The notes: a model not told the origin generated them from the sequence alone. Counted from the stretch's first letter, positions 7,856-59,063 are shown. The stretch is DNA of 64,000 bases from the human T2T-CHM13v2.0 reference genome, Homo sapiens (GCF_009914755.1 NC_060927.1), one strand, 5' to 3'. Numbers and translations: made by a program.

Positions 7856-7998
7856 CTAGTGATGCTGGTATTTGGGGACTGGGCTGTAGAAACACATGTG
7901 ACAGTGGTTAAAAGTAGTAATAGCTGTGATTGCACCTCCCTGGCTCCTTCCCCACTATTGCCTTTGTCTTCATGGAAATATGGAGAGCGTTTCATGTG
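7856..7998 (+). pseudogene. Decayed EGF-repeat exon, xSDAGIWGLGCRNTCDSG*..SNSCD...CLCLHG
   Basis: ttctttgcaa|ct agt gat parallels the intact ttgcag|ct tgt at 58932-58942. WGLGC, SCD and CLCL motifs occur in order, with frameshifts. Confidence 0.6.
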
Positions 7999-8492
7999 GA
8001 AGCTACCCCTGGGCTAGCAGTAAATCTGCAGAATTTAAAGGTCCTAGTCATTTTTCTGAATGCATTTTACTTTGAGCTTTTGAGGTTGATTTTAGTCCAA
8101 AATGCTGATTGAGGATGAAAAGGTTACTAGAGAATTTGCCTATTCATGATGCAACCCATTTTTCATCCAAATCCCATGTCCGGATCACTTTTAATCTTCC
8201 CACTGCCTTCTGTAATGGCTGCTTGCTGCTCCTTTGAGCTACCATTTTTAATGCAAAGGGTCAATGGCAAGAAACTAGTGTCTCCATGGTTAGAACTAGA
8301 CCTCCCATTTAAGTAAAGTGTTATACCAGAAATATGGATTCCTAAAGCCATTAGTTACAGTAATTGTATGGAGTACTAAGGACTGTACCTCACATGAGAT
8401 AGCAAAAGTGTTAATGGTGGCTATAATCTAACACCCCAAAATATCCTTTTCTTAGGTAGGTAACTTATTCACTATAATGTTGAGCAAAATTG

Positions 8493-8878
8493 TGGAGCTA
8501 TTGCTGTGTATCACACATTGTCCGCAAATTTAATGACATAAAACACAAACTATTATTTTTCATGAATCCTTGAATAAACTGGGCAGCTGTGCTGGTCTAG
8601 GCCAGACTCTGGACTCTCATATGTCTGTGGTCAGCTGGCAGGTCAGCTGGGCCTGGCTGGTCCAAGATGTGGCTGGCTAGTCTTAAGGCCTAGTCTCAGA
8701 ACTGGCACATCATCACTTCTTGCTGCAGTCTTTTGGCCAAAGCAAGTCACACTCCTAGCCCAGATTCAAGAGGTGAGGAAATAAAGTCCGCCACTTCAAG
8801 GCAGGAGTTGAAAGTCACGTTATAAAGAGAAAAGATACATGTCTGGGTACAGAATTGGGGTCAGTTTTACAATCAACC
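8493..8878. mobile_element. MaLR LTR (MLT1 family)
   Basis: Motifs ggtcagctggcaggtcagctgg and ttggccaaagcaagtcaca..gcccagattcaag. Confidence 0.7.
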
Positions 8879-9061
8879 CCAATTGCTTTTCCGGATTAGG
8901 AGGGGCAATACTGAGGTTCCCTCCTATACTAGATCACACCAGCTCACTCATGGTAAGCACCACAGCTCAAAAGCGAGATGTGAGGTTTTGAAGTTTTGAA
9001 TAAGCTCTAACCCTCTGTGAAGTTATCTATTACAACAGCATTTAAGAAAAATAACTAGACA

Positions 9062-9366
9062 GGCCAGGCGCAGTGGCTCACTCCTGTAATCCCAGCATTT
9101 GGGGAGGCCAAGATGGGTGGATCACCAGAGGTCAGGAGTTTCAGACCAGCCTGGCCAATGTGGTGAAACCCCATCTCTACTAAAAATACAAAAATTAGCT
9201 GGGCGTGGTGGTGGGCACCTGTAATCCCAGCTACTTGGGAGGCTGAGGCAGGAGAATTGCTTGAACCCGGGAGGCGGAGGTTGCAGTAAGCCGAGATTGT
9301 GCCATTGCACTCTAGACTGTGCGACAAGAGTGAAACTCCATCTCAGGAAAAAAAATAAAAGAAAGA
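9062..9366 (+). mobile_element. Alu (AluS)
   Basis: Full Alu. TSD AAGAAAAATAACTAGACA on both sides. Confidence 0.95.
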
Positions 9367-10479
9367 AAGAAAAATAACTAGACAGCTTCATAATGATGTT
9401 CTGTATTGATGTTCTGTATTGGTTAATACATTTCTGCAACATTTGGCTTAATATAGATATATTTTACCTATGCAGTGGAGTCTTGATTTCTTAAACAGCA
9501 TGTTCTCAAAGTGTTTCTTCTTGTTTTCTTTCATGTGTGTGTTTATAAATGTATGTATATGCATGTATATATGGATTTAAATGTATACACATATGTATAT
9601 GTATATATATATGCACATATGTGTGTGCATGCACATTTCCTACTTCACTTCTGCCAGCATGCCAGCATCCCTGTTATTCTTTAGCACTCTGAGGTACCAC
9701 CTTATGGTTGTTTACTGAAGTTGCTGATTATTCCAAAGGTCACTACCCAGAGCAGGAGATGTTACCTGCCTTACTGGAGCCAACTAGTTATACAGTGGAA
9801 GGGAAATCTAGGTGAGGATGTTAACAGGCATATGTATGCATCTTTTTATGTGGTGGTTCTGATAAAAATTCCATAGGCTCAGCAATAGAGGGCTCAAAAT
9901 CTGGCTGATAATTTTACATCTGGGGTAGCTGCATTTATAATCCTCCATCAGTTGTGGTGTTGTCATCTTCATTAAGAATTTAATGAGCACCAACAGGCCT
10001 AGCTAATGTGTGGAAAACAGAGGTGTAGCCACATCCTCTGCCTAGCAAGCTGTTGCATGATTACAGAGCTTCTGGTGTGCATGAAGAGCTGGGCCCTCCC
10101 TATTTTTACTTACTTCATAAATCTAGACACAGACTTCACTTTGGGGCTCATATTATTAAGAGGATACTGCAGAGGAAAAATAAACCCCGTTTGGTAAAGT
10201 AAATGGTATGCCTGCCTCTGTAGCTACCCATGGTTTATTACTGCTGTATGTTATTTCCAGCAGTGCTTATAACAGTGATCATAAGGGACCTTTAAAGACT
10301 TACTGATGCCTCTTGGGCAGTTTCAGAATAATACCGTTTATAAATTATTCTGCCTACATATCTTATGTCTTCAGGATTCCTTTTGCCTTGCTTTGTCTGT
10401 TGTGAGTATATTTGCATGAAAACAGGTGTGTGACAAAATTCAACATTCATTACAATGAAACACACCCACACTTATACAC

Positions 10480-56212: not shown

Positions 56213-57152
56213 TTAAGTTATTCTTACCTTTTATGGAGTGGATATGCTGATCATTCCAAGGCCCAATACTGTTAGCAAAAGTACTAAAGCTGAGAGCTGG
56301 CATTTTTAAGAACTGTAATTAAAGAGTAAATGTTGTTGCAATTATTTTACTTCCTAATTTACAGTACTAACAGCAAACACAAACTGACCTAAACTCTAGG
56401 TTGAAGAATATTTATGTAGGAGTTTGGTTGAGAGCTACAGTCAGTGAAAGTAGCCAAAGAGATCTTTTTGGTGATAACCCCCCTTGCCCCAGGAACGCTA
56501 GACTCAAGTCAGTATTAGAAATTATGTTTGCCAAGATCAGAGCAGACTTAAGATTCCTGTGTTCACAATGTCAAACTCATTGTCTAAAGTTCCACAATTT
56601 CATTTATGCTCAGCAATTTCCTAGCTCAAAAGTAAGTGGTTTCCCTGCTCATCAAAAAGTAAACAGTTTCCTGAAAGCCAAAGACCTTAAATTAACTACT
56701 TATCACAAAAACAACTATTGACATAAAGTTTAAGGCACTGGATTGAAGAGCCCTTACAAATGCACAGGCTTAGACACTCTGAGGATATGACTACCAAGTA
56801 TATTTTGTTTTTGTTTTTTTTTTCAGATCTGCCATTTTAAAAATATTTATATAGTTTTGCTTAACCCAAATAACTCAACCCATAGTCATACACTCTGACT
56901 CCTCTGACCCTTCAGGTGACAGTCAGAATGAAACACTCACATATGAAGCCACGATTATGATAATTTCTAGGGAGGATAAAAGAGGCAATGAGCAGGAGAG
57001 TGCATTGTGGGGAAGTCAGTTCTGGCAATACTGTATTTTTGACATGGGTGTTACGAATGAGGATGTTCACTTTGTCATCATCCATTGAACTGCACATTTG
57101 TGTTTTTGTGCTTTATTCTGTAATCTTATTAATTAAAAAAGTACCTCCAATA

Positions 57153-57448
57153 GGCCGGACGCTGTGGCTCACGCCTGTAATCCCAGCACTTTGGGAGGCC
57201 GAGGCAGGCAGATCACGAGGTCAGGAGATCGAAACCATCCTGGCTAACATGGTGAAACCCTGTCTCTACTAAAAATACAAAATTTAGCCAGGCGTGGTGG
57301 CGGGCACCTGTAGTTCCAGCTACTCGGGAGGCTGAGGCAGAAGAATGGCATGAACCTGGGTGGTGGAACTTGTAGTGAGCCGAGATCGCGCCACTGCACT
57401 CCAGCCTGGGCAACACAGCGAGACTCCGTCTCAAAAAAAAAAAAAAAA
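57153..57448 (+). mobile_element. AluY-like
   Basis: Alu consensus, TSD AAAAAAGTACCTCCAA. Confidence 0.95.
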
Positions 57449-58359
57449 GTACCTCCAACAGATCTTAAAATAAAGATGGAAGTACTGCCTTAACACACAC
57501 CTCAACATAAGTAAACTAGATTGTGAAATACCTTCATTTGAGATTCCTTCATTTGGATGAAGGATAGCTAAATTTGTCACTAGACAGGGTACTACACTGT
57601 TATGTGTTAAAGACACCCAAAATGCTTATGTTTCCTGGTCAGTCAGTTGCTTTGTCTGCTTTGGAGGAGGGTAATTTTTCTGTTAAAGTGCCCTGCAGGC
57701 CTCAGTGCTCTGCTGTATTGAGAATAAAAGACAAGACAAAACCTGGCTCCAGGTAGCAGACAACTGACACCTAGTGGATAGTGCCTCCTGAGGCCTCAAT
57801 TGGCAAGTTATCTTTCAATTAAGGCCAACCTATAAAGGCCAACCTATAAACAGTTCTTAAGCAAGGTTCTGTCTGGTTCCTTTGTATTTATTCTTCAAAG
57901 AGAGTAAGTGGAAGAAATGTCCTTCTGCCAAAGCATTTTCAAAGCTGTGGTTTCTCTGAACATTGCGGGTACTTTGGTCTTAAGAAAGTTGTGATCTTGT
58001 ACCTGAGCACTTTCCATTTGCTTTGACAGCTTAGTAGGGTAGAGCCAAATTTGCAACCCACCTCTTAAATGTTCCAAAAAATATGATATTTATTTTATAT
58101 TATTACCACATTTTCCCTTTATGTGATTCTCAACAGATATTTATTTTGTCTTTGTGTATTTATATATATTTTGGTAAGCATCTGAATGAATTTGTGGAAT
58201 GAAGTTGCAAAAAACCACCAAACAAATTAATAAATACAAATATATAAATGAATATTTGAAGATATGAGCATAATGAATCTTATATTTATATATAGGAACT
58301 TTAGCTAAAATTCTAGAATGGGCTTTAAGAGAACATACTCAAGAATATTATAAATATAT

Positions 58360-58565
58360 ATTTGTTGTATATATTATACATACATATATAACATAATATA
58401 TGTACACATAATATTCCTACATGTGTTATATAACATATATGTACACATGATATACCTACATATACTATATAACATAATATATGTAATATACATACACATG
58501 CATATGTGTGTAATATATACATATGCATACATATATAGAGAGACACACACACACGCACACACACT
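58360..58565. repeat. TA/CA-rich low-complexity repeat
   Basis: Repeated tataacata(a)tatatgta units, then (GA)(CA). Confidence 0.75.
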
Positions 58566-58937
58566 CTTACACTTGCTAAGACAGAGACACATGGCAAAGC
58601 AAAACAATCCAAATTGGGAACAGTTGAGGTCCTTAATTTGTAAGAGACATTTATATTATATGTAAGTTTTTGACACTAGATATTTAGTTGAAAATTCCTA
58701 ACGCCAACTAAAATGGCTCTATGTAAGCAACAATTTAAACAGTCCCTTGTTTTTCTTTGTTTATTTCTAAGTAACTTTTCACATTGAAAATCAAACTAAA
58801 AGCAAGTCAGTAAAACCTATTTGATTAAATGAAAATGTCATGTATTTCACAAGTTTTAAAAAATCTTGTCTGGCAAAATGTTTAATAAGAAAAATCTGGT
58901 TTTGTTTTGCTCTGTTTTATTTTGCTCTTACTTGCAG

Positions 58938-59063
58938 CTTGTCCTGAAGATCACTATGGGCAGAACTGTGTTCAATGGCGTTCCTGTGGCTCAGGACAGT
59001 GTGACCCAGTGACTGGAGTGTGTCAGTGTCCACCTGGCCGAATGGGAACCAGGTGTCAGGAAG
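58938..59063 (+). pseudogene. EGF-repeat exon remnant (126 bp), xCPEDHYGQNCVQWRSCGSGQCDPVTGVCQCPPGRMGTRCQE
   Basis: Intact ttgcag acceptor and g|gtaaca donor, open frame, 7 of 8 Cys (one TGT>CGT). Confidence 0.93.

What the first reader, a model, noticed from the sequence alone, without database searches (positions are those of the whole stretch)
7856..59063. Fossil exon chain of a MEGF6-like gene: a lost C-terminal EGF-repeat array, probably of EGFEM1
Seen: co-oriented ~126-132 bp phase 1-1 exons with 8-Cys MEGF repeats spread over >50 kb, most missed by the ORF track because of stops and frameshifts. Established: MEGF6 has EMI, Ca-EGF and many single-exon laminin-type repeats. EGFEM1 is its paralog, a pseudogene in human and a shorter EMI/EGF protein in mouse. 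Inference: the ancestral paralog was full-length MEGF6-like, and these exons record its tail, possibly lying beyond current annotation.
Basis: partly seen in the sequence, partly recalled or inferred. Interest (0 to 1): 0.85.

Follow-up and report, generated by a model that had tools for sequence, protein, structure and literature searches.

The report
Relic EGF exons of dead EGFEM1
This stretch of human chromosome 3 holds the decaying leftover exons of the tail of EGFEM1, a dead sister gene of MEGF6; the chain runs past the annotated end of the pseudogene and on into a neighbouring "non-coding RNA" gene.

Summary
Three + strand, single-repeat, phase 1-1 MEGF-type EGF exons are beyond doubt: 51112-51243, 56085-56212 and 58938-59063. 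They score 74.7, 42.3 and 74.7 bits, against a null ceiling of 27-30 bits. Five older relics (7856, 12.9 kb, 28.65 kb, 36.02 kb, 45.07 kb) are single-copy and co-oriented, and fit the expected order. None of them beats chance on EGF likeness alone.

The exons match EGFEM1 models of bat, vole, owl and fish best, then MEGF6, and MEGF10/11/PEAR1 worst. An EGFEM1 protein model aligns collinearly along chr3, from EGFEM1P through the window and 15 kb beyond it. The three clear exons pair with MEGF6 repeats 18, 19 and 20.

All three carry lesions: lost cysteines, a 1-nt deletion, a TGA stop and two dead donor sites.

Four more tail exons lie outside the window, inside LINC02082. A published LINC02082 qPCR primer sits inside one of them.

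This is a unitary-pseudogene relic, a known kind. It is useful for annotation but not surprising.

The parts
7856..7997 (+). Relic A: heavily decayed MEGF repeat exon, best match owl repeat o8 / MEGF6 #10. It reads 'DAGIWGLGCRNTCD', then 'VVKSSNSCD', then 'HYCLCLHGNMESVSC' in three different frames.
   Evidence: Three-frame reading. Best score 60 against owl o8, but the minus-strand maximum for that query is also 60. Profile 21.3-29.6 bits, at the null ceiling. Single-copy. Upstream pyrimidine tract ends 'gcaa', then 'CT AGT', where R12 has 'gcag|CT TGT'. Moderate to weak on its own.
12855..12997 (+). Relic B (weak): reads 'KIPLG.TFDLECKFSSQNQN.NAC', orthologous to bat model P0011 residues 646-694 ('CPEGTFDPKCKLSSQNQYGDGC').
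   Evidence: tblastn E 0.11. Frameshift-aware scores 66 against P0011 and 49 against owl o9, where the minus-strand maximum is 48. Essentially single-copy. Not significant alone.
28654..28785 (+). Relic C (weak): 44 open codons, 'CNFGNLGQLSPCHSQLKQACLCESNVETEFGGTTCYSLYLGRNH', then TGA. No AG acceptor is visible.
   Evidence: Matches unnamed model P0010 residues 546-575 with score 72 (minus-strand maximum for that query 58). tblastn E 0.013. Profile 19.7 bits. Single-copy.
36021..36119 (+). Relic E: decayed MEGF repeat reading 'CSGGFL/GWNCHQVCDCRSI*GAPHC...LPAWAG'. It has one frameshift, one TGA, about 9 codons deleted and the last Cys lost. The acceptor position reads 'caa'.
   Evidence: Owl o10 (MEGF6 #12-type) scores 70 against a minus-strand maximum of 48. 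Profile 26.0 bits, the 4th best + hit. Single-copy.
45069..45191 (+). Relic G: 123-nt phase 1-1 exon shell with AG and GT kept. The EGF pattern is spread over three frames: 'CAGIYGHGVCNCHSGG', then 'CDLRL', then 'QCIFLPG*TGSY'. There is a TAG near the start.
   Evidence: tblastn to bat model P0011 residues 886-924, E 1.4e-5 (1.2e-6). Frameshift-aware score 118. Single-copy.
51112..51243 (+). R10: 132-nt exon, orthologue of MEGF6 repeat #18. All 8 Cys are kept and the frame is open. Two conserved Gly are replaced (TYRKDC, GYHVNHC). The donor position reads AT.
   Evidence: 74.7 bits. 36 of 41 residues identical to bat and 37 of 41 to vole. Best MEGF6 repeat is #18 at 152, next 113. Splice sites. 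Pfam EGF_laminin 20.6 bits, E 4.8e-4, just under the cut-off of 21.
56085..56212 (+). R11: 128-nt exon, orthologue of MEGF6 repeat #19. Lesions: Cys1 to Tyr, a 1-nt deletion in the Cys4 codon, Cys7 to Phe, Cys8 codon now TGA, and the donor position reads TT.
   Evidence: 42.3 bits. 26 of 38 residues identical to bat, 4 of 8 Cys kept. Best MEGF6 repeat is #19 at 88, next 83. Sequence.
58938..59063 (+). R12: 126-nt exon, orthologue of MEGF6 repeat #20. AG and GT are intact. Single lesion: Cys3 to Arg (CGT).
   Evidence: 74.7 bits. 32 of 41 residues identical to P0012, 7 of 8 Cys kept. Best MEGF6 repeat is #20 at 147, next 133. Pfam EGF_laminin 22.6 bits, cut-off 21. Gorilla P0004 is 98% identical and has Cys at the lost position.
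59064..59147 (+). Read-through of the R12 donor, 'GNNGQGHLLCPSTKLAMLRKQIWCQRR', then TAA. It equals the C-terminus of the gorilla model 'putative EGF-like and EMI domain-containing protein 1'.
   Evidence: The match to P0004 over this stretch was read by eye, with one difference (R against Q).
30650..30799 (+). Collinear match to bat model P0011 residues 727-785, with no clear EGF pattern. It may be a relic or merely orthologous intron included in that model. The stretches at 38235-38291, 38616-38708 and 45935-46030 are of the same kind.
   Evidence: tblastn E 0.016, 0.13, 7e-6 and 2.6e-6. Together with relics B, C and G, these are 7 of 7 hits at E<=1, all on the + strand and in query order.

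Best explanation
The window is the interior and distal part of the dead human gene EGFEM1. It lies beyond the annotated 3' end of EGFEM1P.

The ancestral gene. The vertebrate gene was built like its sister gene MEGF6: an EMI domain, calcium-binding EGFs, then a long array of 8-Cys laminin-type EGF repeats. Each repeat sat on its own phase 1-1 exon of 126-132 nt.

Two waves of decay are visible.
1. Inferred: the middle repeats (MEGF6 #9-#17 equivalents) dropped out early in mammals. A living vole model splices the #8-type exon straight to R10. Bat model P0011 and unnamed model P0010 carry the same ruins. In human these repeats survive only as single-copy, co-oriented wrecks at about 7.9, 12.9, 28.7, 36.0 and 45.1 kb.
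2. Shown: the last eight repeats (R10-R17) stayed intact in bat, vole and an unnamed mammal. In human they are freshly broken. R10, R11 and R12 in the window keep 19 of 24 Cys. They carry a stop, a 1-nt deletion and two dead donor sites.

Beyond the window. R13, R15, R16 and R17 lie 7-15 kb past the window's end, and R14 is not detectable.

Function. Nothing here can encode a folded protein. Some relic exons still act as exons of non-coding transcripts. R12 is the terminal exon of a gorilla model, and R16 carries a LINC02082 qPCR primer.
For: Existence.
- Profile scores of 74.7, 42.3 and 74.7 bits against a minus-strand maximum of 27.2 and shuffle maxima of 19.1-29.2.
- Intact AG acceptors and the right lengths and phases.

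Identity as EGFEM1.
- P0012 aligns to 19 of 19 chr3 pieces on + in query order, across EGFEM1P, the window and 15 kb beyond it. Identities are 56-88% on chr3, against 45-62% on the MEGF6 locus on chr1.
- The 58.9 kb exon retrieves gorilla 'putative EGF-like and EMI domain-containing protein 1' at 98% identity. That model joins EGFEM1P exons to it: its upstream parts map to window -19.6, -10.8 and -7.2 kb at 92-100%.
- Microtus 'EGFEM1 isoform X6', bat P0011 and fish 'EGF-like and EMI domain containing 1' all hold the orthologous repeats in one model, together with cbEGF domains (and EMI in the vole and fish models).
- Score ranking: EGFEM1 models, then MEGF6, then MEGF10/11/PEAR1.

MEGF6 paralogy.
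- Human MEGF6 has 23 such repeats.
- R10, R11 and R12 best match #18, #19 and #20.
- In the per-repeat tree R10, R11, R13, R16 and R17 sit next to hM6_18, 19, 21, 24 and 25.

Decay.
- Lesions read directly.
- 47 of 56 Cys are kept over the seven detectable tail exons.
- R14 was not found.

Older relics.
- Single-copy.
- 7 of 7 tblastn hits of the model mid-sections at E<=1 are on + and collinear.

Transcription.
- The LINC02082 forward primer from PMC9483125, Table 1 (passages read), maps exactly inside R16. The reverse primer maps 2.3 kb downstream.
Against: - The five older relics do not individually exceed the chance ceiling for EGF likeness. One equally high-scoring hit proved to be a dispersed repeat.
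- Their repeat-by-repeat assignment is uncertain. Relic C best matches owl o2 or o11, which does not fit the order cleanly.
- Similarity of human DNA to the bat and unnamed models shows orthology of the DNA, not that each piece was once an exon.
- All non-human sequences are predicted gene models. Several contain frame-shifted or intronic stretches, so 'intact in bat and vole' rests on models.
- The tree has only 42 columns: 77 of 115 inner branches are unresolved, and hM6_20 and hM6_23 did not join R12 and R15.
- The MECOM/PRDM16 synteny that would back whole-genome-duplication paralogy is recalled, not tested.
- No RNA data were seen. The exon structure of LINC02082 is known here only from its span and one primer pair.
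Confidence: 0.9

Rival explanations
1. The exons are live, unannotated coding exons of a working human gene, either a longer EGFEM1 or a new MEGF6-like gene.
For: R10 and R12 have open frames. R12 keeps both splice sites. A gorilla protein model uses R12.
Against: R11 has a 1-nt deletion, a TGA stop and 4 of 8 Cys lost. R10's donor reads AT and R11's reads TT. R12 has lost one disulphide Cys. Downstream, R13 has lost 2 Cys, R15 is frameshifted and R14 is missing. The upstream EGFEM1P exons also carry Cys losses.
Confidence: 0.02
2. The repeats are relics of a separate gene that merely lies next to EGFEM1P. That could be a tandem MEGF6-like paralogue, or a fragment of MEGF10, MEGF11, PEAR1 or SCARF, and automatic gene models fuse the two.
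For: Several database names for the orthologous fragments say 'MEGF6' (felids, Myotis). Models P0012 and P0013 lose the reading frame between the EGFEM1 head and the tail.
Against: Independent models join head and tail in vole (RefSeq), bat (Ensembl/UniProt), fish (named egfem1) and owl. The true MEGF6 sits on chr1 with lower identity. The owl has a second, different MEGF6-like protein, P0121. MEGF10/11/PEAR1 score lowest, and no fossil groups with them. The repeat count and order match one MEGF6-like array, not two genes.
Confidence: 0.05
3. Only the three clear exons, plus those beyond the window, are real. The five 'older relics' between 7.8 and 45 kb are chance Cys/Gly patterns in intron DNA, and the mammalian gene never had exons there.
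For: Their profile scores (17.5-29.6 bits) lie within the null range, and a repeat-derived false positive scored 30.9. Neutral orthologous DNA would also match the bat and unnamed models.
Against: Owl, fish and MEGF6 have 9 further repeats exactly between the flanking exons, so relics are expected here. E shares 'C..GF.G..CHQVC.C' with owl o10 (70 against a null of 48). G keeps AG/GT and a length divisible by three. A and E both show 'caa|CT (A/T)GT' after pyrimidine tracts, like R12's 'cag|CT TGT'. All are on + and single-copy.
Confidence: 0.15

Closest known systems
EGFEM1P (human transcribed unitary pseudogene) and EGFEM1 of other vertebrates
   Same: Same locus, strand and exon order. The window exons are 62-90% identical to the positional repeats of bat, vole and unnamed-mammal EGFEM1-type models. 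A gorilla model splices EGFEM1P exons onto R12.
   Different: The RefSeq T2T span of EGFEM1P given by the hub ends 1.4 kb before the window. So these exons, and four more up to window 79118, lie outside the annotated pseudogene.
MEGF6 (chr1, the sister gene)
   Same: Same architecture: one 8-Cys laminin-type repeat per phase 1-1 exon. There is position-by-position correspondence of R10-R17 with MEGF6 repeats #18-#25, including the extra residue in R10/#18.
   Different: Lower similarity than to EGFEM1 orthologues (84-152 against 148-239). MEGF6 is intact, with 23 clean repeats. The chr3 copy is broken.
MEGF10, MEGF11 and PEAR1 (Draper-type receptors)
   Same: Same repeat type. Generic similarity of 83-133 in local alignment.
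   Different: Lowest scores of all. No fossil groups with their repeats. Their human loci are elsewhere: chr5, chr15 and chr1 at 156 Mb (I assigned these gene names to the loci from memory).
LINC02082 (lncRNA reported as raised in papillary thyroid cancer)
   Same: Same strand. Its span (window 69869-89921, hub table) contains relic exons R13, R15, R16 and R17. A published forward qPCR primer lies inside R16.
   Different: It is annotated as an independent non-coding gene. Its reverse primer lies in a non-EGF exon at window 78603-78622. No paper in the searched library links it to EGFEM1 by origin: one paper merely names both (listing only).

Membership tests
MEGF / laminin-type EGF repeat | Eight cysteines in the spacing C-x(5-9)-C-x3-C-x-C-x(3-8)-C-x(4-7)-C-x-C-x(5-9)-C, with conserved Gly | tested here: met
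   R10 has 8 of 8 Cys, R12 has 7 of 8 and R11 has 4 of 8 in register. Profile built from 107 reference repeats scores them 74.7, 74.7 and 42.3 bits. Pfam EGF_laminin: R12 22.6 bits (cut-off 21), R10 20.6 bits (just under).
MEGF / laminin-type EGF repeat | One repeat per exon, phase 1-1, 126-132 nt | tested here: met
   R10 is 132 nt, R11 is 128 nt (129 minus 1) and R12 is 126 nt. All have an AG acceptor, and the frame starts with 2 nt of a split codon.
EGFEM1 (orthology of the exons) | Collinear, same-strand position in the EGFEM1 locus | tested here: met
   19 of 19 chr3 matches of P0012 are on + and in query order, through EGFEM1P, the window and beyond.
EGFEM1 (orthology of the exons) | Closer to EGFEM1 of other species than to any paralogue | tested here: met
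   Scores of 148-239 against bat, vole and unnamed mammal; 84-189 against owl, fish and MEGF6; 83-133 against MEGF10/11/PEAR1. The tree groups each fossil with its positional orthologues.
EGFEM1 (orthology of the exons) | Joined in one transcript or model with the EMI + cbEGF head | tested here: met
   Models P0020 (vole), P0011 (bat), P0012, P0016 (fish) and P0015 (owl), and gorilla P0004. These are models only; no RNA data were seen.
Pseudogene relic (non-functional) | Disabling lesions relative to intact orthologues | tested here: met
   A TGA stop, a 1-nt deletion, 5 of 24 Cys lost, and donors reading AT and TT within the window. R14 is absent and R15 is frameshifted outside it.
MEGF6 ohnologue (paralogue from whole-genome duplication) | Repeat-by-repeat correspondence with MEGF6 | tested here: met
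   R10, R11 and R12 best match #18, #19 and #20. R10, R11, R13, R16 and R17 sit next to hM6_18, 19, 21, 24 and 25. R12 and R15 are unresolved.
MEGF6 ohnologue (paralogue from whole-genome duplication) | Conserved neighbours (MECOM beside EGFEM1P, PRDM16 beside MEGF6) | not tested
   Recalled from memory only. No call examined the neighbouring genes.
MEGF10 / MEGF11 / PEAR1 / SCARF | Best similarity and collinearity to one of these proteins | tested here: not met
   Lowest scores. No grouping in the tree. The SCARF locus appeared only as a weak hit on chr17 and was not compared further.

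The most novel reading that the evidence does not exclude
EGFEM1P and LINC02082 are not two genes. They are the head and the tail of one dead gene spanning about 660 kb, and its relic EGF exons are still spliced into RNA. Both are reported as raised in papillary thyroid cancer, so they may be read-outs of one transcription unit. Beyond that, EGFEM1 may be a gene caught dying repeatedly. The tail is intact in bat, vole and an unnamed mammal. It is independently riddled with Cys losses in human, felids, giant panda and whales, after an earlier shared loss of the nine middle repeats in the mammalian stem.
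Probability: 0.5. Interest if true: 0.45.

Novelty: new member of a known kind. Interest (0 to 1): 0.35.

Why it matters
Annotation. The human EGFEM1 pseudogene is about 80 kb longer than the RefSeq T2T span given here. The neighbouring 'lincRNA' LINC02082 is built at least partly from its relic coding exons. Studies that treat EGFEM1P and LINC02082 as independent thyroid-cancer lncRNA markers may be measuring one locus.

Evolution. The locus records in one place a two-step shrinkage of a 23-repeat MEGF6-like protein, and probably recurrent late loss in several mammal orders.

Naming. Several database entries called 'MEGF6' are EGFEM1 by similarity: the felid and Myotis fragments, and owl A0A663MES8.

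The phenomenon itself, relic exons of a unitary pseudogene, is ordinary.

Tried and rejected
1. A plain count of Cys-rich 43-aa windows gave 53 on + and 68 on -, so it is useless as a detector.

2. A two-seed HMM on six-frame translations found only fragments of the broken exons.

3. The generic profile with softer frameshift penalties raised the noise as fast as the signal. Its best new hit, 22806-22929 at 30.9 bits, is a dispersed repeat and was rejected.

4. The hit at 12527-12628 ('CVQPINCNEDLGSCNL*NCRCCC', 21.8-24.4 bits) has no orthologue support and was dropped.

5. Long-query frameshift-aware alignment of the bat and unnamed model mid-sections gave 30-40 hits on each strand at 45-96, mostly low complexity. 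It was superseded by tblastn with composition statistics.

6. Comparing distant orthologues against the decayed human chr3 DNA and the chr1 DNA could not classify them, because the mean identities were about equal. They were classified per repeat instead.

7. The third word-index search (owl middle repeats) and the representative search with P0012 were swamped by generic multi-EGF proteins. They gave no marsupial or reptile orthologue with intact middle repeats.

8. R14 was sought with bat and P0012 queries over window -20 kb to +84 kb. Only paralogous exons answered, with a top score of 107 at R17.

9. Rfam at gathering thresholds found 0 matches in the window.

10. Literature searches:
- 0 papers hold both EGFEM1 and MEGF6.
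- 0 papers hold Q0D2K5.
- 1 paper holds EGFEM1 + pseudogene + unitary. It is a mouse cortex ncRNA paper, seen in the listing only.
- 1 paper holds both EGFEM1P and LINC02082, seen in the listing only.

Full report
What is in the window

A naive scan for Cys-rich 43-residue windows does not separate the strands: 53 windows on + and 68 on -. It did expose two clean MEGF-type units on the + strand, near 51.1 and 58.9 kb. I built a 42-column profile from 107 intact repeats of ten reference proteins. I aligned it to the DNA with my own frameshift-aware dynamic programme.

The + strand gives 74.7 bits (51114-51236), 74.7 bits (58940-59062), 42.3 bits (56090-56202) and 26.0 bits (36023-36077). The best minus-strand hit is 27.2 bits, and six block-shuffles peak at 19.1-29.2 bits. 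So three exons are far beyond chance, and everything else sits at the noise ceiling when judged on generic EGF likeness.

Anatomy of the three clear exons

- R10, 51112-51243. It is 132 nt long, with acceptor 'ccccttag'. The frame is open and 8 of 8 Cys are kept. Two conserved Gly are replaced, and the donor position reads AT.
- R11, 56085-56212. It is 128 nt long, which is 129 minus a 1-nt deletion. The acceptor is 'tttaacag'. Cys1 is now Tyr, the deletion lies in the Cys4 codon, Cys7 is now Phe, the Cys8 codon is TGA, and the donor reads TT.
- R12, 58938-59063. It is 126 nt long, with acceptor 'acttgcag' and donor 'gtaaca'. The only lesion is Cys3 to Arg.

All three are phase 1-1. Pfam sees EGF_laminin weakly: R12 at 22.6 bits against a cut-off of 21, and R10 at 20.6 bits.

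Whose exons they are

The R12 peptide retrieved 10 proteins at E<=0.001 among 11 candidates. Among them were:
- a gorilla 'putative EGF-like and EMI domain-containing protein 1' (P0004), 98% identical;
- felid and whale fragments, several of them named 'MEGF6';
- a 1066-aa unnamed record (P0010) with cbEGF domains.

P0004's N-terminal parts map at 92-100% to EGFEM1P exons at window -19.6, -10.8 and -7.2 kb. Its C-terminus is R12 plus the read-through of R12's donor, 'GNNGQGHLLCPSTKLAML.KQIWCQRR' (read by eye). So a primate model already splices EGFEM1P onto this window.

A second search (44 proteins at E<=1e-10 among 498 candidates) gave full-length relatives:
- bat P0011, 1317 aa;
- unnamed P0012, 1078 aa, with EMI, cbEGF and the tail;
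- Microtus 'EGFEM1 isoform X6', P0020;
- Fundulus 'EGF-like and EMI domain containing 1', P0016, 1321 aa;
- owl P0015;
- MEGF10, MEGF11 and PEAR1 proteins.

The window's own genome is searchable. P0012 matches 19 pieces of chr3, all on + and all in query order, from 171093187 to 171695139. That path runs through EGFEM1P, through the window (51097-51267 and 58937-59068) and on beyond it. The MEGF6 locus on chr1 matches at lower identity, 45-62% against 56-88% on chr3.

The chain outside the window

Upstream, inside EGFEM1P, repeat exons lie at window -19678, -15894, -14364, -10839 and -7238. Several have lost Cys.

Downstream lie:
- R13 at 70929-71054, with 6 of 8 Cys;
- R15 at 74329-74452, frameshifted;
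- R16 at 76214-76333, with Cys1 lost;
- R17 at 78993-79118, with 8 of 8 Cys. This is the last coding exon, and its frame runs on to a TAG.

R14 was not found. Over the seven detectable tail exons 47 of 56 Cys survive, and identity to the bat and P0012 repeats is 62-88%. These four downstream exons lie on the same strand, inside the span the hub gives for LINC02082 (69869-89921).

Relation to MEGF6 and to the rival families

Human MEGF6 has 23 clean repeats of this type. R10, R11 and R12 match #18 (152, next 113), #19 (88, next 83) and #20 (147, next 133) best. This is a collinear run.

Local alignment scores rank in this order:
- mammal EGFEM1-type models, 148-239;
- owl, fish and human MEGF6, 84-189;
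- MEGF10, MEGF11 and PEAR1, 83-133.

I built a per-repeat ML tree of 118 rows and 42 columns. It is poorly resolved, with 77 of 115 inner branches open. Even so, it puts every human fossil with its positional bat, vole or unnamed-mammal orthologue. R10, R11, R13, R16 and R17 sit next to hM6_18, 19, 21, 24 and 25. No fossil joins MEGF10, MEGF11 or PEAR1 repeats. R12 and R15 are not resolved relative to hM6_20 and hM6_23.

The owl protein P0015 is named 'MEGF6' in UniProt. By these scores it is the bird EGFEM1, and it has intact middle repeats. The owl also has a second MEGF6-like protein, P0121.

The older relics

MEGF6 and the owl protein have nine repeats between the #8-type exon (window -7238) and R10. 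The vole model splices those two exons directly together. So the middle array was probably already gone in the mammalian stem. This is an inference.

Candidates in the window:

- A, 7856-7997. It reads 'DAGIWGLGCRNTCD', 'VVKSSNSCD' and 'HYCLCLHGNMESVSC' in three frames. Its best match is owl o8 (#10) at 60, but the minus-strand maximum for that query is also 60.
- B, about 12855-12997. It is orthologous to the bat stretch 'CPEGTFDPKCKLSSQNQYGDGC'.
- C, 28654-28785. It has 44 open codons.
- E, 36021-36119. It shares 'C..GF.G..CHQVC.C' with owl o10, scoring 70 against a minus-strand maximum of 48.
- G, 45069-45191. It keeps AG and GT and is 123 nt long. Its EGF pattern is spread over three frames, and tblastn to the bat model gives E 1.4e-5.

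A and E both begin 'caa|CT (A/T)GT' after a pyrimidine tract, where R12 has 'cag|CT TGT'. All five candidates are single-copy in the genome.

In an unbiased tblastn of the bat and P0010 mid-sections at E<=1, 7 of 7 hits were on the + strand, and each query's hits were in order. That shows collinear orthology of the DNA. It does not prove that each piece was once an exon. Four of those seven hits (30650-30799, 38235-38291, 38616-38708, 45935-46030) show no clear EGF pattern.

A cautionary control: the best 'decayed' hit under lenient settings, 22806-22929 at 30.9 bits, is a dispersed repeat.

Other mammals (counting only positional matches of about 65% identity or more)

- Myotis has 8 of 8 Cys in each of its eight tail repeats. 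P0012 has 8 of 8 in R11-R17, and Microtus has 8 of 8 in R10-R13.
- Felids have R10 at 7 of 8 and R11 at 5 of 8.
- The giant panda model P0003 and the unnamed P0010 have 5-7 of 7-8 in most repeats.
- Whales have R12 at 6-7 of 8.
- Gorilla keeps the R12 cysteine that human has lost.

This suggests late, independent decay in several orders. It rests on predicted models.

LINC02082

Papers report LINC02082, and separately EGFEM1P, as raised in papillary thyroid cancer. For this I saw only listings and abstracts, plus passages of PMC9483125.

The forward qPCR primer in Table 1 of that paper maps with 0 mismatches to L010:2264-2284. That lies inside R16 and encodes its 'ETFCHPK'. The reverse primer maps to L010:4603-4622, on the minus strand. 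So at least one LINC02082 exon is a relic EGFEM1 coding exon.

In the searched library, no paper holds both EGFEM1 and MEGF6. One paper holds both EGFEM1P and LINC02082, and I saw it in the listing only. bioRxiv and PDF supplements were not seen.

Verdict

Its interpretation, the lost C-terminal array of EGFEM1 lying beyond the annotation, is supported and can be extended by 15 kb past the window's end. The kind of thing is familiar: relic exons of a unitary pseudogene. Other species' gene models already contain the orthologous exons. I therefore rate it a new member of a known kind, with modest interest. Its main value is for annotation and for anyone using EGFEM1P or LINC02082 as markers.

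Noticed in passing
L009:6929-7054; L010:329-452, 2214-2333, 4993-5118 (window 70929-79118, beyond the window): Four more EGFEM1 tail exons (R13, R15, R16, R17) lie inside the LINC02082 span on the same strand. A published LINC02082 forward qPCR primer sits inside R16. R14 is missing.
   Followed up: yes
L012:322-450, 4106-4210, 5636-5758, 9161-9292; L011:2762-2884 (window -19678 to -7116): The annotated EGFEM1P repeat exons also carry Cys losses, for example 'GNCQNGG', 'GAHMCEPG' and 'EGWFSSAPC' where orthologues have 'ECQ.SCGPC'.
   Followed up: partly
L011: about 521-628 (window about -9479 to -9372): A weak match (49) of the owl MEGF6-#6-type repeat ('GFSGAGW...CPSRFHGQ'). It may be another relic between the R3 and #8-type exons.
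   Followed up: no
window 22806-22929: An EGF-looking pattern ('CPE.W..G.DC..CS*KEC..C') that outscored all true older relics under lenient settings. It lies in a dispersed repeat with thousands of copies. It is a warning for pattern-based exon hunting.
   Followed up: yes
window 13017-14440: A 1.4-kb degenerate (TCC)n polypyrimidine tract (TRF: 479 copies, 68% matches) directly 3' of relic B. It explains the strong GC and AT skew of the 12-16 kb bin.
   Followed up: no
window 53957-54481 and 58377-58535: TA/CA-rich compound microsatellites. The second lies about 400 bp upstream of R12. It produces the strongest minus-strand false EGF score (27.2 bits at 58530-58616).
   Followed up: no
window 26588-27138 (-): The annotated RPL21P43 retro-pseudogene accounts for the minus-strand Cys-rich hits at 26810-27001.
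   Followed up: partly
proteins P0015, P0002, P0006-P0008, P0013: Database names say 'MEGF6' for proteins that are EGFEM1 or EGFEM1 tail fragments by similarity: owl A0A663MES8, felid fragments and the Myotis NCBI model. Models P0012 and P0013 read the #8-type exon out of frame, and P0012 reads R10 out of frame as well. That hints at frame-breaking exons in real transcripts or at model errors.
   Followed up: partly
proteins P0001-P0010: Cys losses in the EGFEM1 tail in felid, giant panda and whale models, against full retention in Myotis, Microtus and P0012. This suggests independent decay in several mammal orders.
   Followed up: partly
window 1-64000: No Rfam family reaches its gathering score on either strand.
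   Followed up: yes
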